A stretch of DNA of 35,358 nucleotides from a virus (IMGVR_UViG_3300029957_000005:128001-163358); one strand, 5' to 3'. Positions 1 through 6,943 are shown, counted from the stretch's first letter. Numbers and translations: made by a program. The notes: generated by a model not told the origin, from the sequence alone.

Positions 1-17
1 CGATCCTTTGTTAGTAC

Positions 18-115
18 TTGAGTGGGAACCATCCCCGATCGGCACAATGTGGATCGATCTTTCAGATTTTACCCAGGGAACCTAAGCTCCACAGTTGACG
101 CTACGAACCACTCAA
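18..115 (-). ncRNA. Structured ncRNA candidate
   Basis: Closing stem TTGAGTGG/CCACTCAA; inner TGTGGA/TCCACA enclosing two small hairpins; immediately 3' of tRNA-Gln. Confidence 0.5.
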
Positions 116-414: not shown

Positions 415-501
415 TGGAGTACCGGGCGAGATTCGAACTCGCGGTGTCCTTTCGGAATCGGATTAAAAGTCCGACGTCGTCGACCGCTTGACTACCGGTA
501 C
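415..501 (-). tRNA. tRNA-Lys(UUU) with long variable arm, U73
   Basis: GTACCGG/CCGGTAC, loop CTTTTAA, variable arm TTCCGAAAGGACACC, CCA. Confidence 0.9.
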
Positions 502-888: not shown

Positions 889-978
889 TGGCGCGCTCGG
901 AGGGAGTCGAACCCCCATTGATGCAATCTCCTCCGATTACGGTTACTGCGGGGTAGAAACCCGGACCGGTACGAGCGC
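889..978 (-). tRNA. Non-canonical D-armless tRNA-Arg(UCU)-like RNA
   Basis: Acceptor GCGCTCG/CGAGCGC, T-arm with TTCGACT, CCA, anticodon hairpin CGGG-TTTCTAC-CCCG, no D-arm, long 3' insert. Confidence 0.7.
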
Positions 979-985
979 TTGTCGA

Positions 986-1126
986 TTAGGACGCAGAACG
1001 AGCAATTGCCGAAATGTCAGCTCTTGCAATTCCGATGTCCGATAGTTCTCTGTTGGATAGGCTTGCAAGTTCGCTGACGGTGTGTCTGTAAACTTTCCAG
1101 GCCCTATACTTACGCATCAAATTCAT
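986..1126 (-). CDS. DUF1127 (YjiS-like) small Arg-rich protein, 46 aa
   Basis: Hand translation MNLMRKYRAWKVYRHTVSELASLSNRELSDIGIARADISAIARSAS fits the DUF1127 pattern W..YR.T..EL..LS.REL.DIGI.R.DI; AAGGAAG RBS; absent from ORF track. Confidence 0.9.
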   Translation of the reverse strand: MNLMRKYRAWKVYRHTVSELASLSNRELSDIGIARADISAIARSAS

Positions 1127-1191
1127 GTTTCTTCCTTTCGATTTGGTACTGTCTTATACTATACCAAAGAGGTAGAAATTAGAATTGATGA

Positions 1192-1396
1192 TTTGGAATA
1201 CCTAGTATTCCGAAATTCGATCGACTCCGTTTGCCGTTCCTTTCTTAGGGCCCGACTGCCTGTTTTCTAGAATGAACCAGATGACCACGGAGTCCGAGTA
1301 CGGTCACAATGCGTTGCGTGGCGCATTGTTTTCTGGTAGGTCACACCTTAAAGCCACCTAGCTGATGCATCTCCCGAGCTAGGTAGGACAGGTGGA
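1192..1396 (-). ncRNA. Multi-stem structured ncRNA candidate with possible pseudoknot
   Basis: ACCTAGCT/AGCTAGGT, ACCAGA/TCTGGT, ACAATGCG/CGCATTGT, GACTCCGT/ACGGAGTC, terminal GGAATA/TATTCC hairpin. Confidence 0.6.
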
Positions 1397-1398
1397 TA

Positions 1399-1484
1399 TG
1401 GAGGCGTGGGTGAGAATTGAACTCACTCTCATTGCTGAGACCTTGGCTTTGCAGGCCAGTTCGTTGCCGGTCCGACACCACGCC
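1399..1484 (-). tRNA. tRNA-Cys(GCA) with long variable arm
   Basis: GGCGTGG/CCACGCC, U73, loop CTGCAAA, variable hairpin TCTCA-GCAA-TGAGA. Confidence 0.9.
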
Positions 1485-1491
1485 TATAATT

Positions 1492-1581
1492 TGGAGTACC
1501 TGGAAGGATTCGAACCTTCGACGTCCTTACGGATCCGGATTAAGAGTCCGGCGCCTTCGACCAACTCGGCTACACAGGTAC
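1492..1581 (-). tRNA. tRNA-Lys(CUU) with long variable arm, U73
   Basis: GTACCTG/CAGGTAC, loop CTCTTAA, variable arm ATCCGTAAGGACGTC, 2 extra nt after acceptor 5' strand. Confidence 0.9.
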
Positions 1582-1600
1582 ATTTAGAGATTGATTGTCC

Positions 1601-1762
1601 TCAGAGCGTTTCGAGCTTCTTGTTCGGAAGGATCTTGCACCAGTTGAGGAGCGCACCACCTTCGACGAGAGCGCGAGACATCAGCATCTTTCCACGATAG
1701 ACTCCACCAACTTGAAGATGGGAGAAATTCCTGGAACGAACTTCTGAGGTAATCTTCAGCAT
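1601..1762 (-). CDS. Hypothetical early protein, 53 aa (MLKITSEVRSRN...)
   Basis: GGAGA RBS just downstream of an early promoter; hand translated; absent from ORF track. Confidence 0.65.
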   Translation of the reverse strand: MLKITSEVRSRNFSHLQVGGVYRGKMLMSRALVEGGALLNWCKILPNKKLETL

Positions 1763-1785
1763 ATCTATCTCCATTTGTTAGAAGC

Positions 1786-1813
1786 ATACTAACACATCAG
1801 GAGGAGATGTAAA
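1786..1813 (-). promoter_or_regulatory. T4-type early promoter
   Basis: TTTACA-N16-TAGTAT with TGTG upstream of -10; motif recurs five times in the window. Confidence 0.75.
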
Positions 1814-1822
1814 CTGAAAAAT

Positions 1823-1898
1823 TGGATCATCCACTAGGATTCGAACCTAGATTCTCCGACTTCAGAGGACGGCGTTCTACCAGTTAAACTACGGATGA
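1823..1898 (-). tRNA. tRNA-Gln(CUG)
   Basis: Cloverleaf, loop CTCTGAA, TTCGAAT, CCA. Confidence 0.93.
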
Positions 1899-1906
1899 AT
1901 ATGACC

Positions 1907-2401
1907 TTACTTCAGGTCTTTCGCCTTGACCCACTTGTCGTCGATGAAGACTTCAGAGAGGGACTCAGCTTGGTTTTCTGCCACGATCACGGACTCGTGG
2001 GGTCTTGGATTGGCCGAAACGTTCTTCGAAACGACCTTGACTTGAGACACAGTGCGAGAGATCCTGATGAAGGACCTATCGTCTGGATGGATCTTCCGAA
2101 ATTCAGCCAGCTGTCTGTTGTACTCTTCGTAGTACTTCTCGCGGTTCTCACCGTATGGACGGAAGGAGATGTCTGCTTCGAATTCGATGTAGTCCGGATT
2201 CTTATAGGAGACTTCGGCAAATCGATCCATCTGGACGACCTCGAGAACCTCTCTCCAGTAGGCCGATCCCTTGTTGGATCTCGAACCGGCAAAGCGGACT
2301 CGCATTCCTGGACGAAGGTTTTGAAGAACCCAGGTGGTTATCCGATCTTCACGATCTATGGTTCTCTGGGCCTGAGCCTGTGTTTCGTTATACCATGCCA
2401 T
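1907..2401 (-). CDS. Hypothetical protein, 164 aa
   Basis: TAAGGA RBS; fills inter-tRNA gap; phage-like codon use. Confidence 0.8.
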   Translation of the reverse strand: MAWYNETQAQAQRTIDREDRITTWVLQNLRPGMRVRFAGSRSNKGSAYWREVLEVVQMDRFAEVSYKNPDYIEFEADISFRPYGENREKYYEEYNRQLAEFRKIHPDDRSFIRISRTVSQVKVVSKNVSANPRPHESVIVAENQAESLSEVFIDDKWVKAKDLK

Positions 2402-2422
2402 TCTATGTTCCTTATTTCAAAT

Positions 2423-2494
2423 TGGTCCCTCTGCCGGGTAACGCTCCTGGAGAATCAGCCTTATGAGAGCCGTTCGACCACTTGATCCAGAGGG
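2423..2494 (-). tRNA. tRNA(CAU), Met or Ile2, atypical T-loop
   Basis: CCCTCTG/CAGAGGG, loop CTCATAA, T-loop AGCGTTA, CCA. Confidence 0.8.
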
Positions 2495-2500
2495 ATGTTT

Positions 2501-2574
2501 TGGTGCGGGTACAGAGACTCGAACTCTGGACTCCTGGTTGGAAGCCAGGCACGTTTCCTCTACGCCATACACGC
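2501..2574 (-). tRNA. tRNA-Gly(UCC), A73
   Basis: Loop CTTCCAA, T-loop TTCGAGT, CCA. Confidence 0.9.
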
Positions 2575-2581
2575 GTTGTTT

Positions 2582-2657
2582 TGGTGCGACTTCTTGGTTT
2601 CGATCCAAGCTCCCTGGTTTTTCAAACCAGCGCTTTCACCAGATTAGCTTAAGCCGC
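2582..2657 (-). tRNA. tRNA-Phe(GAA)
   Basis: Loop TTGAAAA, T-loop ATCGAAA, CCA. Confidence 0.9.
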
Positions 2658-2665
2658 ATGTTAGT

Positions 2666-2772
2666 ATTCGACCTCTTAGTCCTGCACGTCTCGGGAGAGA
2701 ATTTATCGGTTTTACCAGCAGTCCATGTTAAGTTAGTCCACGTTGTCCCGTTGCTCGTGGATTAGGTCGAAT
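2666..2772 (-). ncRNA. Structured ncRNA candidate
   Basis: 9-bp closing stem ATTCGACCT/AGGTCGAAT, hairpin TCCACG/CGTGGA, possible CGGGA/TCCCG long-range pairing. Confidence 0.55.
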
Positions 2773-2774
2773 TA

Positions 2775-2868
2775 TGGCGGAAGACGGAGAGCCCGAGTCC
2801 CATACGTGGTCTTAGCACGTACGCATCGCTTTCCAAGCGAGCCCAGCACCCTGTCTGGTTCATCTTCC
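2775..2868 (-). tRNA. tRNA-Ser(GGA), 8/4 fold
   Basis: 8-bp acceptor GGAAGATG/CGTCTTCC, 4-bp T-stem, long variable arm, G73. Confidence 0.85.
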
Positions 2869-2873
2869 ATATT

Positions 2874-2973
2874 TGGCGGACACTGTGAGGTTCTCACTCA
2901 CCATAGAGGTCGACAGCTTCTATCCATTAAGTTTCATCACGACCCGGACTGGGCAGGATGAAACTCCGTGTCC
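2874..2973 (-). ncRNA. Ser-like tRNA mimic with no canonical D or anticodon arm
   Basis: GGACAC/GTGTCC + GCCA, T-like arm TGAG-TGAGAAC-CTCA, long hairpin AGTTTCATC/GATGAAACT, variable-arm-like ATAGA/TCTAT. Confidence 0.7.
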
Positions 2974-2981
2974 ATATTCAA

Positions 2982-3070
2982 TGGCGGAAGGCAGAGGTCT
3001 CGATCCCCACACCCGTGAGGGTGCTCACTGCTTTCGAAGCAGGTCCAGAACCCCGTCTGGTTTACCTTCC
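2982..3070 (-). tRNA. tRNA-Ser(CGA), 8/4 fold
   Basis: GGAAGGTA/TGCCTTCC, loop TTCGAAA, long variable arm, G73. Confidence 0.87.
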
Positions 3071-3073
3071 AAT

Positions 3074-3166
3074 TGGCGGAAGACTGAGGTCACGCTCCCC
3101 ACACGTGGTACTAGCACGTGCCCACTGCTTTCAAGGCAGGTCCGATCCTCGACCGGTTAGTCTTCC
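3074..3166 (-). tRNA. tRNA-Ser(UGA), 8/4 fold
   Basis: GGAAGACT/AGTCTTCC, loop CTTGAAA, T-loop AGCGTGA, G73. Confidence 0.87.
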
Positions 3167-3172
3167 ATGTTT

Positions 3173-3249
3173 TGGTCCCGCCATCGGGATTTGAACCCGA
3201 GTCGCCTACCTTGAGAGGGTAGCATTCTTGACCACTAAACTACAGCGGG
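3173..3249 (-). tRNA. tRNA-Glu(CUC)
   Basis: Canonical cloverleaf, loop CTCTCAA. Confidence 0.93.
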
Positions 3250-3255
3250 TAATCT

Positions 3256-3332
3256 TGGTCCTCTTGAAAGGATTCGAACCTTCAACCTTGGCGTTAGGAG
3301 TGCCGAGCTCTGTCCGGTTGAGCTACAAGAGG
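3256..3332 (-). tRNA. tRNA-Arg(CCU)
   Basis: Canonical cloverleaf, loop CTCCTAA. Confidence 0.93.
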
Positions 3333-3337
3333 ATAAT

Positions 3338-3414
3338 TGGTCCGGCTGATGGGATTCGAACCCACATTGGACTCCTTGAAAGGGAGGCTTCCTAGGCCAT
3401 TAGAAGACAGCCGG
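3338..3414 (-). tRNA. tRNA-Glu(UUC)
   Basis: Canonical cloverleaf, loop CTTTCAA. Confidence 0.93.
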
Positions 3415-3422
3415 TTAATAAA

Positions 3423-3496
3423 GAGAGGCTCAGGAGTGTATGCCTGACTTACGCTGTCACCTCCGCTTGGTGACAGACCTAGGCTCCGAGGAGCAA
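3423..3496 (-). ncRNA. Small structured RNA candidate
   Basis: Hairpins CTGTCACC/GGTGACAG, TCAGG/CCTGA and GCTCC/GGAGC fill the spacer. Confidence 0.45.
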
Positions 3497-3498
3497 AT

Positions 3499-3573
3499 TG
3501 GCTGCAGAGGCTGGGTGTGAGCCAGCACCTCCGTCCCACAACGGGACGGCGCTCTCCATTAAGCTACTCCACA
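3499..3573 (-). tRNA. tRNA-like RNA, undetermined anticodon (7-bp stem, 5-nt loop GTTGT)
   Basis: Acceptor, D-arm and CCA present; anticodon arm CCGTCCC-GTTGT-GGGACGG; T-loop CTCACAC. Confidence 0.7.
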
Positions 3574-3574
3574 A

Positions 3575-3650
3575 TGGCGAGGATGACGGTATTCGAAACC
3601 GCAACTATTCCGCAGACAACGGAGCACCCTTCCCAGAGGGTCCCATCCCC
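3575..3650 (-). tRNA. tRNA-Asp(GUC), U37
   Basis: GGGGATG/CATCCTC, G73, loop TTGTCTG. Confidence 0.85.
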
Positions 3651-3652
3651 AT

Positions 3653-3803
3653 TAAGCTCTGTTCAAACCTCTCTCTTCGAGATACCGGATGGAGGGTGAG
3701 GACCTACATCTTTCCCCTCCCTCACGAAGAGCGGCAGCCATATTGGACCGCAGCCACATTGGACCGTAGCCGTCTTGAAGAGAAGAAGTTAGAACAGAGC
3801 TTA
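3653..3803 (-). ncRNA. Promoter-proximal long-stem ncRNA with internal 16-nt repeats
   Basis: Ends pair over about 30 bp (TAAGCTCTGTTC/GAACAGAGCTTA and beyond); begins 7 nt after an early -10 box. Confidence 0.7.
3734..3771. repeat. 16-bp tandem repeat x2.4 (GCAGCCAYATTGGACC)
   Basis: gcagccatattggacc gcagccacattggacc gtagcc. Confidence 0.85.
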
Positions 3804-3810
3804 CTGTGTT

Positions 3811-3839
3811 AGTCTATCATGCTTGTGAAGGCATGTAAA
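3811..3839 (-). promoter_or_regulatory. T4-type early promoter
   Basis: TTTACA-N17-TAGACT with TGn extension. Confidence 0.75.
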
Positions 3840-3842
3840 CTG

Positions 3843-3873
3843 AAAAAGTGGAGAAATGACCATGTTTCTCCGC
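3843..3873 (-). terminator. Intrinsic terminator
   Basis: GCGGAGAAA/TTTCTCCAC stem followed by TTTTT. Confidence 0.75.
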
Positions 3874-3889
3874 GAAGCAATTAAGAGCT

Positions 3890-3966
3890 TAACCTTTTGC
3901 AGACCGACAGACTTTCGTCTGACCTTATGTTTATCCACCGTGGGTCTATAGCGCAATCACGGTGCG
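3890..3966 (-). ncRNA. Pseudoknot-type RNA candidate
   Basis: CACCGTG/CACGGTG stem whose loop AGACC can pair with downstream GGTCT; inserted CAGAC-GAAA-GTCTG hairpin. Confidence 0.45.
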
Positions 3967-3974
3967 TTGGAATA

Positions 3975-4066
3975 TGGTGGGCCCCGGGACGTATCGCACG
4001 CCTTGCCGCATAGGGACCTGGTTTACAGCCAGGCAACCGGACTTCCGATTCTTACTTGCGGGGCCC
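3975..4066 (-). tRNA. tRNA-Tyr(GUA), atypical (8-bp acceptor, enlarged D region)
   Basis: GGGCCCCG/CGGGGCCC, loop CTGTAAA, T-loop TGCGATA, A73. Confidence 0.8.
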
Positions 4067-4072
4067 ATATGA

Positions 4073-4180
4073 AGGATTTTGCATTCTGCACGAATGAGAG
4101 TCGAACTCAATCGTTCCGGGACTTACACCCGTCTGCATCCTACTGGGAGAACCCATCTCCCTGCCCTTGTCGGGCATCTC
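4073..4180 (-). ncRNA. Structured RNA with two T-loop-like hairpins
   Basis: CGGG-TGTAAGT-CCCG and TGAG-TTCGACT-CTCA inside AGGAT/ATCCT, plus TGCCC/GGGCA and GGGAGA/TCTCCC; no CCA. Confidence 0.6.
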
Positions 4181-4185
4181 TGATT

Positions 4186-4261
4186 TGGCACGGGAAGCCA
4201 GATTCGAACTGACTCTAAACGTTTTGGAGACGTTTGTGCTAGGCCATTACACCATACCCGT
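4186..4261 (-). tRNA. tRNA-Trp(CCA)
   Basis: Canonical, loop CTCCAAA, G73. Confidence 0.93.
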
Positions 4262-4265
4262 ATGT

Positions 4266-4502
4266 TCACTTCACGAAGTGAGGCTGACCTTCCTTGGCCT
4301 TCCACTTCAATCCCTTCCAACCAGACGGGATGTAGTGAGAGATGCCAAAGGCATCGAAGAGACGATGACCACCTGACTTGGAGACGTTGAGCCAGAGAGG
4401 CTCCTCGATCCTGATAGTTTCGCCTACGAACTTGTATTCGCGCCATTCCTCCGAAGAGATATCCACGAATTCCAATCCCGACTTATTGTTGAAGTCTGAC
4501 AT
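4266..4502 (-). CDS. Hypothetical protein (start MSDFNNK, 78 aa)
   Basis: AAAGGA RBS before ATG at 4502; fills inter-tRNA gap. Confidence 0.8.
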   Translation of the reverse strand: MSDFNNKSGLEFVDISSEEWREYKFVGETIRIEEPLWLNVSKSGGHRLFDAFGISHYIPSGWKGLKWKAKEGQPHFVK

Positions 4503-4528
4503 GATTGAATTTCCTTTCTCTGTCAAAT

Positions 4529-4604
4529 TGGTACCAGTACTAGGTTACGCTCCTAGCTATACACGGTTATCGGCCGCGCCTCGTCACTAGCTGAGTCTAC
4601 TGGC
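4529..4604 (-). tRNA. tRNA-Ile(GAU), A18/G55 type, C33
   Basis: Loop CCGATAA, D-loop AG, T-loop AGCGTAA. Confidence 0.87.
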
Positions 4605-4610
4605 ATATTA

Positions 4611-4686
4611 TGGTGCTCTATCCAGGTATCGCGCCTGGTGCCTCCTGGATGTCGACCAGGCGTCTTTACTAACTGACCCATAGAGC
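4611..4686 (-). tRNA. tRNA-Val(GAC), A18/G55 type, C33
   Basis: Loop TCGACAT, T-loop CGCGATA. Confidence 0.87.
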
Positions 4687-4692
4687 ATTAAT

Positions 4693-4767
4693 TGGAACTA
4701 GAGGAGAGGCTCGAACTCTCAATTCCGGGGACACAACCCAGCCGGTTACCATTACCGTCACTCTAGC
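4693..4767 (-). tRNA. tRNA-His(GUG), no G-1, G1-U72, U37
   Basis: GCTAGAG/CTCTAGT, loop TTGTGTC, position -1 is T. Confidence 0.85.
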
Positions 4768-4777
4768 ATGTTCGTTT

Positions 4778-4869
4778 TGGTACGCGATCTGGGTTTCGAT
4801 CCCAGTCAAGAACGGTCATCTACCGCTAAAGGCTTTATAAGGGCCTCTCATGTCCCAACATCATCGCGT
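4778..4869 (-). tRNA. tRNA-Ile(UAU) with long variable arm
   Basis: ACGCGAT/ATCGCGT, loop CTTATAA, variable hairpin AGCGGT-AGATG-ACCGTT. Confidence 0.8.
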
Positions 4870-4877
4870 ATTCTAAT

Positions 4878-4954
4878 TGGTAGGCCTAGAGGGAGTTGAA
4901 CCCACAACCACTACGTTCTAAGCGTAGCCGCTTTGCCAATTTGCGTATAAGCCC
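4878..4954 (-). tRNA. tRNA-Leu(UAG), short variable loop
   Basis: Loop CTTAGAA, 5-nt variable loop, A73. Confidence 0.9.
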
Positions 4955-4960
4955 ATATTT

Positions 4961-5037
4961 TGGTGCTCTGAGAGGGAGTCGAACCCTCACTGTACGGCAT
5001 CTCAGTCCGCTTCCTCTACCAATTGGGATATCAGAGC
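4961..5037 (-). tRNA. tRNA-Leu(GAG), short variable loop
   Basis: Loop CTGAGAT, 5-nt variable loop, A73. Confidence 0.88.
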
Positions 5038-5045
5038 AATTCGTT

Positions 5046-5121
5046 TGGAGCCCACATCGGGTAACGCTCCCGCTTCACCGGTTTACAGGACCGGACCTCA
5101 TCTAATAAAGGCGTTGTGGGC
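5046..5121 (-). tRNA. tRNA-Thr(UGU), A18/G55 type, C33
   Basis: Loop CCTGTAA, T-loop AGCGTTA. Confidence 0.83.
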
Positions 5122-5128
5122 AGATAGG

Positions 5129-5182
5129 AAGGAGAGGCTCCGTCTTGATCACCGATCAGACCACCGAGTAGTTCCTCTCCTT
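5129..5182 (-). ncRNA. Irregular hairpin RNA candidate
   Basis: AAGGAGAGG/CCTCTCCTT closing stem with inner GTCT-GATC/GATC-AGAC. Confidence 0.4.
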
Positions 5183-5185
5183 GAT

Positions 5186-5260
5186 TGGAGCTTCCTGTCA
5201 GTAACGCTCTGACTTCTCACCCTTACGAAAGGCGCACATCGCTTTTAATGCTTAGGAAGC
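5186..5260 (-). tRNA. tRNA-Thr(CGU), A18/G55 type
   Basis: Loop TTCGTAA, T-loop AGCGTTA. Confidence 0.85.
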
Positions 5261-5267
5261 ATGAATT

Positions 5268-5330
5268 GATCGAGGCCTTGCACCTCGCCAGCCGTAGCAT
5301 TGTTAGAGACCTATGACGCGGCTCAGGTCT
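5268..5330 (-). ncRNA. H-type pseudoknot followed by a T-loop hairpin
   Basis: AGACCTG/TAGGTCT, loop AGCCG pairs with downstream CGGCT, then CGAGG-TGCAAGG-CCTCG. Confidence 0.55.
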
Positions 5331-5332
5331 TT

Positions 5333-5408
5333 TGGTTGCGGGGGCTGGGTTTGAACCAGCGTCTCCGGCTTATGAGGCCAGCAAGGAACCGGGCTCCTCT
5401 ACCCCGCA
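5333..5408 (-). tRNA. tRNA-Met(CAU), initiator-like
   Basis: TGCGGGG/CCCCGCA, A11-U24, loop CTCATAA; lacks the full three G-C anticodon-stem pairs. Confidence 0.88.
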
Positions 5409-5421
5409 ATATTCCGGTTGT

Positions 5422-5477
5422 TGGTATCAGGGCGAATCACCTCATGAAAGCGATTCCGTCGGCCGACTGACCCTGAG
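5422..5477 (-). ncRNA. 56-nt CCA-ended, T-armless mini-tRNA-like RNA with CAU loop
   Basis: TCAGGG/CCCTGA + TACCA; GAATCGCT-TTCATGA-GGTGATTC hairpin. Confidence 0.55.
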
Positions 5478-5479
5478 AA

Positions 5480-5554
5480 TGGTGGCCCCTCTCCCTTGCA
5501 AGGAAAGATCCTCTCCCTCAACGGGAGCGCTTTGTGCCTTTAAGCTAAAGGGCC
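5480..5554 (-). tRNA. tRNA-like RNA, undetermined anticodon (5-nt loop GTTGA)
   Basis: GGCCCTT/AGGGGCC + ACCA, D-arm, CTCCC-GTTGA-GGGAG, T-loop CTTGCAA. Confidence 0.7.
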
Positions 5555-5559
5555 AAACT

Positions 5560-5633
5560 TGGTGCTCTCAATAGGTTACGCTCCTATCTCTGCTCCTTAC
5601 CAAAGAGCTATTCTACTAATGAAATATGAGAGC
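5560..5633 (-). tRNA. tRNA-Thr(GGU), A18/G55 type
   Basis: Loop TTGGTAA, T-loop AGCGTAA. Confidence 0.87.
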
Positions 5634-5638
5634 AAATA

Positions 5639-5713
5639 TGGTACTTCCTGAGAATTCCGAGATCTCGACCTTCGGTATGTAACACCGCTGCTCTGCCTCT
5701 GAGCTAAGGAAGT
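5639..5713 (-). tRNA. tRNA-Val(UAC)
   Basis: Loop GTTACAT, atypical T-loop CTCGGAA, A73. Confidence 0.85.
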
Positions 5714-5725
5714 ATGAATTCTTCT

Positions 5726-5799
5726 CGACGAACCTGCAAGGAATCGAACCCTGTGTTTCCCTCTGCACGAGAGCGTCCTATCCACTAGACGAAGGTTCT
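5726..5799 (-). tRNA. tRNA-like RNA or pseudo-tRNA (5-nt loop GTGCA, no encoded CCA)
   Basis: D-arm GTCT/GGAC, T-arm with TTCGATT, acceptor GAACCT/AGGTTC. Confidence 0.6.
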
Positions 5800-5800
5800 C

Positions 5801-5906
5801 AGACAAAGACCGATCCGGCAAGACCGGCATAATCGTCTGCGAGTCAACAAGGCCCGAGTGGATTGCCGTCCAACCTTCCTTGTTCGAAGAGGGTAACAAT
5901 CTCTTC
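5801..5906 (-). ncRNA. Three-hairpin structured spacer
   Basis: GAAGAG/CTCTTC, AACAAGG/CCTTGTT, AGAC..CCGG/CCGG..GTCT. Confidence 0.4.
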
Positions 5907-5910
5907 TTAA

Positions 5911-5987
5911 TGGTGCCTAAGGAGGTATTCGAAACCTCATACACCTCTTTTTGAGGGAGGCCGCTTTGCCTCTTTGCGTACTCAGGC
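5911..5987 (-). tRNA. tRNA-Leu(CAA), short variable loop
   Basis: Loop CTCAAAA, 5-nt variable loop, A73. Confidence 0.9.
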
Positions 5988-5992
5988 TTATT

Positions 5993-6067
5993 TGGTGGAG
6001 AAGGTGGGTAACGCTCCCACTAGGCTGGAATCTTGCAAGGATTCCCCGGGTATCTCACCCCATCCCC
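5993..6067 (-). tRNA. tRNA-Ala(UGC), reduced D-arm
   Basis: G3-U70, loop CTTGCAA, T-loop AGCGTTA. Confidence 0.83.
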
Positions 6068-6078
6068 AATTCTTGAAT

Positions 6079-6142
6079 TGGTGCCACCGATAGCCGAAGA
6101 GACAACAATGATTACCGCTCGGTGGCAACACGGGTCATTGTA
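6079..6142 (-). ncRNA. CCA-ended pseudoknotted small RNA
   Basis: GCCACCGA/TCGGTGGC + ACCA; 5' ACAATGA complementary to loop TCATTGT. Confidence 0.6.
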
Positions 6143-6144
6143 TT

Positions 6145-6218
6145 TGGAGCGGATAGTGGGGATCAAACCCACCTCAACGGCTTGGAAGGCCGAGGCACAG
6201 TCACTATACCATATCCGC
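6145..6218 (-). tRNA. tRNA-Gly(UCC), second copy, U73
   Basis: GCGGATA/TATCCGC, loop CTTCCAA, A19/U56 swap. Confidence 0.9.
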
Positions 6219-6224
6219 AGTAAT

Positions 6225-6314
6225 TGGCTCCTATCGCAGGTACCGCCCCTGCCCCACCTTTCGATGGCCTTCCGGTTAACAGCCGGAGACTTTCACTATG
6301 CCAGTCCGATAGGA
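6225..6314 (-). tRNA. tRNA-Asn(GUU) with long variable arm
   Basis: TCCTATC/GATAGGA, G73, loop CTGTTAA, variable hairpin CCATC-GAAA-GGTGG, T-loop GGCGGTA. Confidence 0.85.
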
Positions 6315-6317
6315 ATA

Positions 6318-6606
6318 TTGCTCTTTCGAGCAAAACGACTAAACCGATATTTGGTCAGAATGGCCTCGGTTAAAGGGCAGCAGAAAATTCGATGGGTCCA
6401 CGTTTTGAAAGGACCGGACCCTTTACGCTTGGAGTTAAGTGGGTAAGTCCACCTCCAGAACGACTCGTATACCTTCTTTGGAGTCCGACTCTTACTGCCG
6501 GATACCTGTAAAGGACAATCTTCAATTGTCTAAGAACCCGAGCTTTCTTAGGCTCGTACCTTCCGGAGAAGGATTTCTGACCGAGCCCAGTTGGTCTCAA
6601 GGTCGT
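6318..6606 (-). ncRNA. About 290-nt highly structured ncRNA, unknown family
   Basis: Ten or more stems incl. ACGAC/GTCGT, GGTCAGAA/TTCTGACC, CCTTTAC/GTAAAGG, GGGTCC/GGACCC; no credible ORF; bounded by tRNAs. Confidence 0.65.
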
Positions 6607-6608
6607 AT

Positions 6609-6683
6609 TGGTCAGGATGGTTGGTAACGCTCCAACTTTGCGGACTTCCAAGGTCCACCGATGATCTTATCTCTTACACCCTG
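6609..6683 (-). tRNA. tRNA-Pro(UGG), A18/G55 type, A37
   Basis: CAGGGTG/CATCCTG, loop CTTGGAA, T-loop AGCGTTA. Confidence 0.85.
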
Positions 6684-6757
6684 TTTATGCACTCGGATCT
6701 TTATCCTATCACGTTTTTCGGTCGTCTGAAACTCTTTTTTCGGTTTCAGTTAAAATT

Positions 6758-6840
6758 TGGAGCTCACGACAGGCTTCGAACCTGCATCTACCTATCCAGT
6801 TACCTTTGTCCTCGTTCGTAGCGAGGGGGGATACGTGAGC
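6758..6840 (-). tRNA. Non-canonical D-armless tRNA-Arg(ACG)-like RNA
   Basis: GCTCACG/CGTGAGC + TCCA, CCTCG-CTACGAA-CGAGG, T-loop TTCGAAG, no D-arm. Confidence 0.75.
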
Positions 6841-6914: not shown

Positions 6915-6943
6915 ACTCTACTCTAAGATGGAAAGCTTGTAAA
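6915..6943 (-). promoter_or_regulatory. T4-type early promoter at the head of the tRNA array
   Basis: TTTACA-N17-TAGAGT. Confidence 0.75.

What the first reader, a model, noticed from the sequence alone, without database searches (positions are those of the whole stretch)
889..6840. Two Arg-anticodon RNAs share a novel D-armless fold with covarying stems
Seen: 889-978 (UCU) and 6758-6840 (ACG) have normal acceptor and T arms and CCA, but only about 7 nt between the acceptor and anticodon arms. That strand can pair with a long insert 3' of the anticodon arm, and the pairing covaries (TCC/GGA plus CC/GG in one; CC/GG plus GGT/ACC in the other) around a shared GTAAY bulge. No canonical Arg(ACG) or Arg(UCU) gene is in the window. 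Known: ArgRS reads D-loop A20. Inference: the D-loop has been moved to the other strand, giving a topologically rewired but functional tRNA-Arg.
Basis: partly seen in the sequence, partly recalled or inferred. Interest (0 to 1): 0.85.

Follow-up and report, generated by a model that had tools for sequence, protein, structure and literature searches.

The report
Rewired phage arginine tRNA genes
Two unannotated genes in this T4-like rhizobial phage's tRNA cluster belong to a large, almost phage-only class of arginine tRNAs whose D-arm parts lie after the anticodon arm, so they cannot form the textbook cloverleaf, yet they keep the sequence features a working tRNA needs.

Summary
Both RNAs are real: 978..889 (-, UCU, 90 nt) and 6840..6758 (-, ACG, 83 nt). 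Each has a 7-bp acceptor stem, a normal anticodon arm, a normal T arm and an encoded CCA, but only 7 nt between the acceptor and anticodon stems. ARAGORN and Rfam's tRNA model miss both.

They belong to a family of at least 194 distinct sequences. These sit in phage tRNA arrays and almost never in cellular genomes. Every anticodon is an Arg one (ACG, UCG, CCG, UCU, CCU). A separate scan found one Ile relative.

Covariation defines the fold. The 5' linker pairs with the nucleotides on both sides of a bulged D-loop-like motif, U-A14-R15-Y-N-G18-G19-A20, which lies 3' of the anticodon arm. R15 covaries with the base before the T stem, as in a Levitt pair.

Its pairing register does not, because it paired the invariant D-loop GG.

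The genome has no canonical ACG or UCU tRNA. The codons these two would read make up 54% and 19% of its Arg codons. Charging and use in translation are inferred, not shown.

I found no paper describing this class. This scan has noted it before on other DNA.

The parts
6758..6840 (-). Rewired tRNA-Arg(ACG) gene, 83 nt, CCA encoded
   Evidence: Sequence. Scores 90.2 bits with family model R1. Row 1 of alignments A1 and A2.
6834..6840 (-). ACG gene: acceptor stem 5' strand. It pairs with 6762-6768; 6761 is discriminator U and 6758-6760 is CCA.
   Evidence: 7/7 pairs. Family acceptor stem is 100% paired and all 7 pairs show compensatory changes.
6827..6833 (-). ACG gene: 7-nt linker UAUCCCC (nt 8-14). 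C11 and C12 pair with G38 and G37.
   Evidence: Columns 11-38 CG 80/80; columns 12-37 CG55 GC18 AU5 UA2 with 0 unpaired.
6810..6826 (-). ACG gene: anticodon arm, 5-bp stem, loop CUACGAA, anticodon at 6817-6819
   Evidence: Stem is 97.8% paired with compensatory changes in all 5 pairs.
6803..6809 (-). ACG gene: segment ACAAAGG. Its last two G form the 3' strand of the trans D-stem.
6795..6802 (-). ACG gene: bulged D-loop-like motif UAACUGGA (A14, A15, G18G19, A20 equivalents)
   Evidence: Motif is invariant in type across 194 members. Its R15 covaries with the base before the T stem.
6786..6794 (-). ACG gene: variable-region equivalent UAGGUAGAU, ending in the U48 equivalent
   Evidence: The last two nt are AU in all 82 ACG members.
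6769..6785 (-). ACG gene: T arm
   Evidence: 100% paired in the family.
889..978 (-). Rewired tRNA-Arg(UCU) gene, 90 nt, CCA encoded
   Evidence: Scores 49.6 bits (E 2e-11) with R1, which was built without it; canonical tRNAs score 39 bits or less. 95.6% identical to Sinorhizobium phage Phosso and 88% to Ochrobactrum phage OC, while the flanks do not match.
965..971 (-). UCU gene: linker UACCGGU. C11, G12, G13, U14 pair with G39, C38, C37, A36; C10 pairs with G48 just after the D-loop motif.
   Evidence: Sequence. Same columns as the covarying family pairs.
948..964 (-). UCU gene: anticodon arm, loop UUUCUAC, anticodon at 955-957. Position 27-43 is a C.C mismatch.
   Evidence: C28-G42 becomes A28-U42 in the OC, L130 and L131 copies.
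932..947 (-). UCU gene: AGUAACCG (3' strand of the trans D-stem) followed by the D-loop-like bulge UAAUCGGA
917..931 (-). UCU gene: 15-nt variable-region equivalent. It may form a 3-bp mini-hairpin (GAU/AUC) and ends in the U48 equivalent.
   Evidence: The loop of the mini-hairpin varies among the five copies. No covariation, so the hairpin is unproven.
889..916 (-). UCU gene: T arm (900-916), acceptor 3' strand (893-899), discriminator G (892), CCA (889-891)
   Evidence: Compensatory changes in the acceptor and T stems among the Phosso, OC, L130 and L131 copies.
6915..6943 (-). Promoter-like site TTTACA-17-TAGAGT, about 75 nt upstream of the ACG gene, which is the first gene of the array
   Evidence: Similar TTTACA..TAG sites lie at 3839 and 1813 (-). 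The total site count is not above the shuffled expectation, so this is weak evidence.

Best explanation
Both loci are genes for arginine tRNAs of a widespread, nearly phage-specific class with a rewired core.

There is no D hairpin. Instead, a 7-8-nt strand (U8, A9, then 5-6 nt) runs straight from the acceptor stem into the anticodon stem. It base-pairs with the nucleotides on both sides of a 7-8-nt bulge placed after the anticodon arm. That bulge reads U-A-R-Y-(N)-G-G-A and carries the usual D-loop residues: A14, R15, G18, G19 and A20, the main bacterial ArgRS determinant.

In canonical numbering, the order 9-[10..21]-[22..44]-45 has become 9-[22..44]-[10..21]-45. A D-stem-like helix can therefore still stack on the anticodon stem. 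The D-loop can still reach the T loop and pair R15 with Y48, which should give an L-shaped molecule.

Inferred steps: the RNAs are cut out of the array transcript, charged by the host ArgRS through A20, C35 and G/U36, and used by the phage. The ACG tRNA would have A34 deaminated to inosine and read CGU/CGC/CGA. The UCU tRNA would read AGA.

Shown here: the genes, the family, the pairing pattern, the conserved residues and the gene-set complementarity. Inferred: expression, 3D fold, charging, decoding, and why phages prefer this wiring.
For: 1. Family size. At least 194 distinct members lie in 172 loci.

2. Covariation.
- Acceptor, anticodon and T stems are 96-100% paired with many compensatory changes.
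- Linker nt 12 with the second nt before the D-loop motif: 194/194 Watson-Crick (CG106, GC68, AU12, UA8), against 47% after shuffling. In alignment A2: CG55 GC18 AU5 UA2, none unpaired.
- Helix on the other side of the bulge in the 8-nt-linker subclass: 10-48 GC18 AU9 CG1 UA1; 11-47 CG19 UA4 UG3 AU2 with 1 unpaired; 9-49 AU29. RNAalifold found this helix on its own.

3. Tertiary pair. A15 goes with U48 in 190 of 191 members. G15 goes with C48 in 6 and G48 in 3, and never with U.

4. Anticodons: ACG 86, UCU 80, CCU 14, UCG 13, CCG 1. None would misread Ser AGY codons.

5. Identity elements. A20, C35, G/U36 and an A/G/U discriminator (193 of 194) match the bacterial Arg identity set in PMC9976931.

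6. Slot filling.
- The whole 163-kb genome has only canonical Arg(CCU).
- In 215 loci, a canonical Arg tRNA with the same anticodon accompanies the rewired one in only 17 of 236 cases.
- Arrays in cellular records carry canonical UCU, CCU and CCG plus a rewired ACG.

7. Codon use in the phage. CGU+CGC+CGA make up 54% and AGA 19% of Arg codons.

8. CCA is encoded in 137 of 194 members and absent in the rest, as is usual for real tRNA genes.

9. The UCU gene is 95.6% identical to the Phosso copy, while the surrounding 8 kb shows no other similarity to Phosso.
Against: - There are no expression, processing, modification, structure-probing or aminoacylation data.
- RNAalifold leaves the region unpaired in A2 and pairs part of it into the D-loop in A3.
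- In the window's ACG copy the trans D-stem has only two Watson-Crick pairs, and nt 10 faces a U.U mismatch.
- In the ACG subclass, C11C12 and the two G are nearly invariant. Their register therefore rests on the other subclasses plus single variants such as L219:1175-1253 and L025:9488-9566.
- The search patterns fixed GGA and the G before UAA, so invariance of those letters is partly built in.
- Some phages also carry a canonical Arg(ACG), for example DLP_6 and Zooman. The rewired copy is therefore not always needed to fill a gap.
Confidence: 0.7

Rival explanations
1. The RNAs fold as described but are not used for decoding. They act as tRNA-Arg mimics, for example as decoys or sponges for a host tRNA-directed nuclease, modification enzyme or other tRNA-binding factor during infection.
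For: - Some phages carry the rewired ACG gene next to a canonical Arg(ACG) gene, which suggests a non-redundant role (17 of 236 cases).
- The class is almost confined to phages.
- The anticodon loop is kept identical to that of host-type tRNA-Arg.
Against: - A decoy would not need a perfect 7-bp acceptor stem, discriminator and CCA.
- It would not need the ArgRS determinant A20, nor anticodons limited to correct Arg decoders.
- In most arrays the rewired gene is the only gene for its anticodon.
- It matches codons the phage uses heavily.
Confidence: 0.15
2. The fold is. The linker pairs with the GG(A) of the ..GGA motif and with the GG/CC further upstream, around a GUAAY bulge. No D-loop equivalent is left single-stranded.
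For: - For the window's ACG copy this is close to the minimum-free-energy structure.
- It scores about 1 kcal/mol better than my model.
- UAUCC/GGAUA complementarity exists in this one copy.
Against: - Across 80 homologues, pair 12-44 breaks in 23, 10-46 in 25, 13-38 in 27 and 14-37 in 30.
- Helix 10-12/44-46 has no compensatory change.
- The GG of GGA is invariant while its proposed partners vary through C, G, A and U.
- Position 10 covaries with the nt after GGA, not with its A.
Confidence: 0.05
3. They are decaying tRNA pseudogenes, or rearrangement scars in a recombination-prone tRNA array, with no function.
For: - tRNA finders reject them.
- The window's array also holds other odd or weak tRNA-like genes.
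Against: - There are 194 distinct sequences with the same architecture, from phages of Alpha- and Gammaproteobacteria and Actinobacteria.
- All stems are kept by compensatory changes.
- Loops and tertiary residues are invariant.
- The UCU gene is 95.6% identical between phages whose flanks do not align.
Confidence: 0.02
4. The genes are precursors that are spliced, trans-joined or otherwise processed into an ordinary cloverleaf tRNA, like intron-containing, split or permuted tRNA genes.
For: The extra length lies in one block after the anticodon arm. Some members carry a further hairpin there.
Against: - ARAGORN's intron mode finds nothing.
- Removing any single block cannot create a D hairpin between nt 9 and the anticodon stem.
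- The 5' acceptor strand and the 3' CCA are in the normal order.
- The 'extra' block holds the most conserved residues of the family.
Confidence: 0.03

Closest known systems
Canonical bacterial and phage tRNA-Arg (e.g. E. coli tRNA-Arg ACG; Rfam RF00005 cloverleaf)
   Same: 7-bp acceptor stem, discriminator and CCA. Anticodon arm with the loops CUACGAA or CUUCUAA. T arm with a UUCRA loop. U8, A9, A14, R15:Y48, G18G19 and A20. Arg-only anticodons. Location in tRNA arrays.
   Different: There is no D hairpin between nt 9 and the anticodon stem. The D-loop residues and one D-stem strand lie 3' of the anticodon arm, and the D-loop is a bulge rather than a hairpin loop. RF00005 gives no hit to either window gene. 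ARAGORN calls only 6 of 194 members, and only 2 of those as Arg.
Metazoan mitochondrial D-armless tRNAs, e.g. mt-tRNA-Ser(AGY), Ascaris mt-tRNA-Ser(UCU) (review PMC7609411)
   Same: A short connector replaces a D hairpin between the acceptor and anticodon stems.
   Different: Those tRNAs have lost the D-loop and its contacts with the T loop, and they work with co-adapted mitochondrial factors. Here the D-loop residues are all kept but relocated, the T loop is canonical, and the setting is a bacterial cytoplasm.
Synthetic D-arm-less 'mini HisT' accepted by E. coli translation (PMC11551756)
   Same: It shows that a bacterial synthetase, EF-Tu and the ribosome can use a tRNA without a D hairpin. 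This makes function of the phage RNAs plausible.
   Different: Mini HisT is artificial and simply lacks nt 11-25. It needed a pnp mutation to persist. That paper states that all known bacterial tRNAs are cloverleaves.
allo-tRNAs and tRNA-Sec with 8/4, 9/3 or 9/4 acceptor/T branches (PMC5389517)
   Same: Natural non-standard tRNAs of bacteria and phages that were found by dedicated searches, often with long extra arms.
   Different: Those are still cloverleaves with a D hairpin and differ only in arm lengths. The present class keeps 7/5 arm lengths but changes strand connectivity.
Circularly permuted and split tRNA genes (red alga Cyanidioschyzon; Nanoarchaeum); named from my own knowledge, not checked in a paper here
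   Same: The order of tRNA segments in the gene differs from the textbook order.
   Different: In those cases processing restores a normal cloverleaf. Here the ends are in normal order and the internal segment swap must persist in the mature RNA.

Membership tests
Canonical cloverleaf tRNA (Rfam RF00005) | 7-bp acceptor stem with discriminator and 3' CCA | tested here: met
   Both genes have 7/7 pairs and an encoded CCA.
Canonical cloverleaf tRNA (Rfam RF00005) | Anticodon arm (5 bp, 7-nt loop, U33, purine 37) and T arm (5 bp, UUCRA loop) | tested here: met
   The UCU gene has a C.C mismatch at 27-43.
Canonical cloverleaf tRNA (Rfam RF00005) | D hairpin between nt 9 and nt 26 | tested here: not met
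   Only 7 nt separate the acceptor and anticodon stems. ARAGORN finds no tRNA in any mode.
Canonical cloverleaf tRNA (Rfam RF00005) | Score at or above the RF00005 gathering threshold (29 bits) | tested here: not met
   No RF00005 match at E<=1 for either locus. 22 neighbouring tRNAs match, 21 of them at 38-61 bits and one (5729-5798) below the threshold at 22.8 bits.
   UAUCCCC and UACCGGU. The family has 146 members with 7 nt and 48 with 8 nt.
   UAACUGGA...AU and UAAUCGGA...AU.
   ACG gene: C11-G38 and C12-G37. UCU gene: four pairs plus C10-G48. Family covariation.
   ACG and UCU. All 194 members carry Arg anticodons. One Ile(GAU) relative exists.
   90.2 and 49.6 bits, against 39 bits or less for the window's canonical tRNAs. 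The ACG gene was in the training set; the UCU gene was not.
Functional tRNA-Arg (substrate of bacterial ArgRS) | A20, C35, G/U36 and A/G/U73 present | tested here: met
   Sequence. Identity set as listed in PMC9976931. Whether the relocated A occupies the position-20 pocket in 3D is not known.
Functional tRNA-Arg (substrate of bacterial ArgRS) | Expressed, processed, arginylated and used on ribosomes | not testable with these tools
   Needs RNA sequencing of infected cells and charging assays.
Mitochondrial-type D-armless tRNA | Loss of the D-loop G18G19 and of the canonical D/T-loop contact residues | tested here: not met
   GG, A14, R15 and the canonical T loop are all retained.
tRNA-Sec (RF01852) | Gathering score of 47 bits, 8/5-type acceptor/T branch, UCA anticodon | tested here: not met
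   22.4 bits at E 0.8 for the UCU gene only. It has 7/5 arms and an Arg anticodon.
Class II (long variable arm) tRNA | Normal D arm plus a self-contained variable-arm hairpin | tested here: not met
   No D arm. The extra segment pairs with the linker. Only some relatives (X1, BUDD, DLP_6) add a true 5-bp extra hairpin.

The most novel reading that the evidence does not exclude
These are members of the first natural class of non-cloverleaf, segment-swapped tRNAs that work with bacterial ribosomes. Phages keep this wiring because it lets their arginine tRNAs escape a host tRNA-directed defence, a host turnover pathway, or the phage's own attack on host tRNAs, while host ArgRS can still charge them.
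Probability: 0.25. Interest if true: 0.92.

Novelty: new variant of a known kind. Interest (0 to 1): 0.8.

Why it matters
The cloverleaf is treated as universal for cytosolic and bacterial tRNAs. A 2024 paper still states that all known bacterial tRNAs adopt it (PMC11551756).

A class of hundreds of phage tRNA genes with a different strand topology but the same tertiary residues would have several consequences:
- The L-shape could be reached through more than one secondary structure in nature.
- Standard tRNA finders would be shown to under-count phage tRNA sets. ARAGORN of 194 members. None of the 9 isolate phage records examined here annotates its copy.
- Codon-supply analyses of phages would change.
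- It would give a natural scaffold for orthogonal tRNA design.
- It would raise a testable question: why arginine, and why phages?

Tried and rejected
- ARAGORN in standard, intron, relaxed and mitochondrial modes gave no usable call. The mitochondrial mode only reported a 48-nt internal fragment of the ACG gene.
- Rfam at E<=1 gave no family except a sub-threshold tRNA-Sec hit.
It gives an unrelated fold for the UCU copy.
- Energy evaluation cannot separate the models.
- RNAalifold did not recover the lower part of the trans D-stem. The model therefore rests on pair counts, not thermodynamics.
- MAFFT misaligned members with a 7-nt D-loop motif in A1. I therefore counted pairs on length-homogeneous subsets A2 and A3.
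- My first parsers failed: one crashed and one used too narrow a length window. Both were corrected.
- The genome-contig scan gave 60 pattern matches. Only 10 of these loci hold real members; the rest are chance matches.
- The Ile(GAU) scan gave 5 matches, of which 4 are chance and 1 is real.
- The G15 scan confirmed G15:C48. It also revealed a G15/G48 subgroup with a G7.G66 mismatch that I cannot explain.
- Explanations rejected: pseudogene, intron or split precursor, tRNA-Sec, class II tRNA.
- Four literature searches found no description of the class.

Full report
**What is at the coordinates.** The window opens with a tRNA array on the - strand. ARAGORN finds 23 tRNAs between 119 and 6683. 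The rest of the window encodes a T4-like replication module: RNase H, a UvsW-type helicase, NrdA/NrdB and gp32. The genome is a single contig of 163,358 bp with 52.6% G+C.

The two reported elements read on the - strand as 978..889 (90 nt) and 6840..6758 (83 nt). Each has:
- a perfect 7-bp acceptor stem, a discriminator and an encoded CCA;
- a T arm with a UUCGA-type loop;
- an anticodon arm whose 7-nt loop carries UCU or ACG.

Only 7 nt (UACCGGU, UAUCCCC) separate the acceptor stem from the anticodon stem. A further 31 or 24 nt follow the anticodon arm before the T arm.

No detection tool recognises them:
- ARAGORN finds neither gene in any bacterial mode.
- Rfam at E<=1 gives no tRNA match to either, while 22 neighbouring tRNAs do match. 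The only hit is tRNA-Sec at 22 bits for the UCU gene.

**They are members of a large family.**
- BLAST against isolated phages matched the UCU gene, and nothing else in the 8 kb queried, to Sinorhizobium phage Phosso at 95.6% identity and to Ochrobactrum phage vB_OspM_OC at 88%.
- The ACG gene matched unannotated gaps in the tRNA clusters of Rhizobium phage RHph_I1_18, Xanthomonas phages X1, XacN1 and BUDD, Stenotrophomonas phages DLP_6 and RAS14, and Microbacterium phage Zooman.
- A covariance model built from 82 ACG sequences (R1) scored the UCU gene at 49.6 bits, although that gene was not in the model. Canonical tRNAs scored 39 bits or less.
- The same model picked up further UCG, UCU and CCU members in the fetched loci.

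A parser with no restriction on the anticodon gave 194 distinct members in 172 loci: ACG 86, UCU 80, CCU 14, UCG 13, CCG 1. The four other anticodons it returned were mis-parsed ordinary tRNAs. ARAGORN calls only 6 of the 194, and only 2 of those as Arg. A separate scan found one clear relative with an Ile(GAU) anticodon, so the design is not strictly limited to Arg.

**The fold.** Numbering follows the 83-nt ACG gene.
- The acceptor, anticodon and T stems are 96-100% paired with abundant compensatory changes.
- After the anticodon stem come 5-8 nt and then a motif U-A-R-Y-(N)-G-G-A. UAACUGGA occurs 96 times and UAAUUGGA 71 times.
- The two to four nt just before this motif pair with linker nt 11-14.
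  - Pair 12-37 is Watson-Crick in 194 of 194 members, using all four pair types (CG106, GC68, AU12, UA8). After shuffling it is 47% paired, with a maximum of 58%.
  - In the tool's count on alignment A2 the same pair is CG55 GC18 AU5 UA2 with none unpaired.
- The nt after GGA pairs with linker nt 10. In the ACG set this is U-A 24, A-U 17, G-C 7, C-G 2 and U.G 5 of 82.
- In the 8-nt-linker subclass this upper helix has three pairs: 9-49 AU29; 10-48 GC18 AU9 CG1 UA1; 11-47 CG19 UA4 UG3 AU2 with 1 unpaired. RNAalifold predicted this helix independently.

The linker is therefore the continuous strand of a helix. The opposite strand of that helix is interrupted by the 7-8-nt bulged motif.

**A Levitt-type tertiary pair.** The R of the motif covaries with the last nt before the T stem. 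A goes with U in 190 of 191 members. G goes with C in 6 and with G in 3, and never with U. This is the behaviour of the 15:48 Levitt pair. Together with the invariant U8, A9, GG and UUCRA T loop, it identifies the bulge as a relocated D-loop. The identification of the bulge is inference.

**Canonical numbering (inference).** The order 9-[10..21]-[22..44]-45 has become 9-[22..44]-[10..21]-45. The D-stem-like helix can still stack on the anticodon stem.

**The window's two copies.**
- UCU gene: C11-G39, G12-C38, G13-C37, U14-A36 and C10-G48.
- ACG gene: only C11-G38 and C12-G37. Position 10 faces a U.U mismatch.

Its other pairs use the GG of GGA. On 80 homologues those pairs break in 23-30 sequences, and helix 10-12/44-46 has no compensatory change. 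That GG is invariant while its supposed partners vary through all four bases. This is what one expects of G18G19 rather than of helix residues. The G of 'GUAAY' is paired; the bulge is UAAYNGGA.

Thermodynamics cannot decide between the models. For both genes the three alternatives lie within about 1.5 kcal/mol of each other.

**Evidence that they act as arginine tRNAs.**
- All anticodons are correct Arg decoders, and none would read Ser AGY codons.
- The bacterial Arg identity set listed in PMC9976931 is A20, C35, G/U36 and A/G/U73. It is present in the family: the A follows GG, and the discriminator is G 77, U 77, A 39, C 1.
- The whole genome has one canonical Arg tRNA (CCU) and none for ACG, UCU, UCG or CCG. 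CGU+CGC+CGA make up 54% and AGA 19% of Arg codons in its long ORFs.
- In 215 loci (median 9 kb, median 9 canonical tRNAs), a canonical Arg tRNA with the same anticodon accompanies the rewired gene in only 17 of 236 cases.
- In arrays found in cellular records, canonical UCU, CCU and CCG sit beside a rewired ACG.
- CCA is encoded in 137 of 194 members and not in the others, as is usual for real tRNA genes.
- The UCU gene is followed within about 15 nt by a likely ribosome-binding site and an ATG at 873-871 that opens the ORF ending at 505.
- The ACG gene heads the array, about 75 nt downstream of a weak promoter-like site.

Processing by RNase P, A34-to-I34 editing by TadA, charging and decoding are inferences from what those enzymes are known to need. 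None was tested here.

**Distribution.** Hosts of isolated carriers include Rhizobium, Sinorhizobium, Ochrobactrum, Xanthomonas, Stenotrophomonas and Microbacterium. None of the nine isolate records examined annotates its copy as a tRNA.

In one genome for each of 185,579 prokaryotic species, the ACG motif matched 60 places. Only 10 of these loci hold real members. Eight of those ten lie in dense tRNA arrays (7-20 tRNAs per locus) typical of phages and prophages, or of phage contigs binned into MAGs. The other two are L280, which has one neighbouring tRNA, and L286, a 641-bp contig with three.

**Literature and earlier notes.** Four full-text searches found no description of such tRNAs. The 2020 review of non-canonical tRNAs does not mention phages. 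[quoted passage not shown]

This scan has reported the same class before on other DNA: Felix O1-like phages, a Seunavirus, Streptomyces phages and marine phages. I reached my reading before consulting those notes. They are unchecked AI notes and not independent evidence. I tested their mention of Ile relatives and confirmed it once.

**Rivals.**
- Decoy or mimic role without decoding: not excluded. It is suggested by phages that also carry a canonical Arg(ACG). It explains the intact aminoacylation features and the slot filling poorly.
- Pseudogene, intron or split precursor, tRNA-Sec and class II readings: contradicted by the data above.

**Open questions.** Expression, 3D fold and charging are untested. 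The register in the nearly invariant ACG subclass rests on a few variants, such as L219:1175-1253 with A12-U37 and L025:9488-9566 with G11-C38. A G15/G48 subgroup carries a G7.G66 mismatch that I cannot explain. It is also unknown why phages favour this wiring and why it occurs almost only for arginine. A single origin, locked to Arg by A20 and C35, is a simple possibility. That last point is inference.

Noticed in passing
window 415-501 (-), 1492-1581 (-), 1399-1484 (-): tRNA-Lys(UUU), tRNA-Lys(CUU) and tRNA-Cys(GCA) are 86-90 nt long. ARAGORN draws each with a long variable-arm hairpin. From my own knowledge, bacterial class II tRNAs are normally only Leu, Ser, Tyr and Sec, so long-arm Lys and Cys tRNAs are unusual. 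Rfam still scores them as tRNA at 46-59 bits.
   Followed up: partly
window 5642-5713 (-): Rfam finds a tRNA (40.6 bits) that ARAGORN misses. By eye it has a normal acceptor stem, D arm and CCA, an apparent UAC (Val) anticodon, and an abnormal T arm.
   Followed up: partly
window 5729-5798 (-): A second tRNA-Cys(GCA) call is only 70 nt long and has no CCA. It scores 22.8 bits, below Rfam's threshold of 29. It may be a degenerate copy.
   Followed up: no
genome contig C1:125406-125794 (-), about 2.2 kb before the window: ARAGORN reports a permuted (two-piece type) tmRNA gene with the tag peptide ANDNVSYEGVALAA in this phage genome.
   Followed up: no
L308:5180-5275 (- strand of locus): One viral contig carries the same rewired architecture with an Ile(GAU) anticodon loop, CUGAUAA. 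Its linker is UACCAGC and pairs with ..CUG before UAAUUGGA. The design is therefore not strictly limited to Arg.
   Followed up: partly
L314, L316, L317 (viral contigs): A subgroup of rewired UCU genes has G at the R15 position and G, not C, before the T stem. It also has a G.G mismatch at acceptor pair 7-66. I have no explanation.
   Followed up: no
window 6943-6915, 3839-3811, 1813-1786 (-): Three similar promoter-like sites (TTTACA, 16-17 nt, TAG..T) lie on the tRNA strand and may divide the array into transcription units. The overall site count is not above the shuffled expectation.
   Followed up: no
L003, L006, L007 and about 20 viral loci (e.g. L013, L032, L033): Some ACG members carry an additional covarying 5-bp hairpin between the D-loop motif and the T arm. 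This is a true extra arm, giving genes of 92-94 nt.
   Followed up: partly
L002 (Rhizobium phage RHph_I1_18, record 15116-15206): The rewired ACG gene lies where locus tag EVB91_035 is missing between EVB91_036 and EVB91_034. The neighbouring tRNA-Ile carries a stray 'transfer-messenger RNA, SsrA' note.
   Followed up: no
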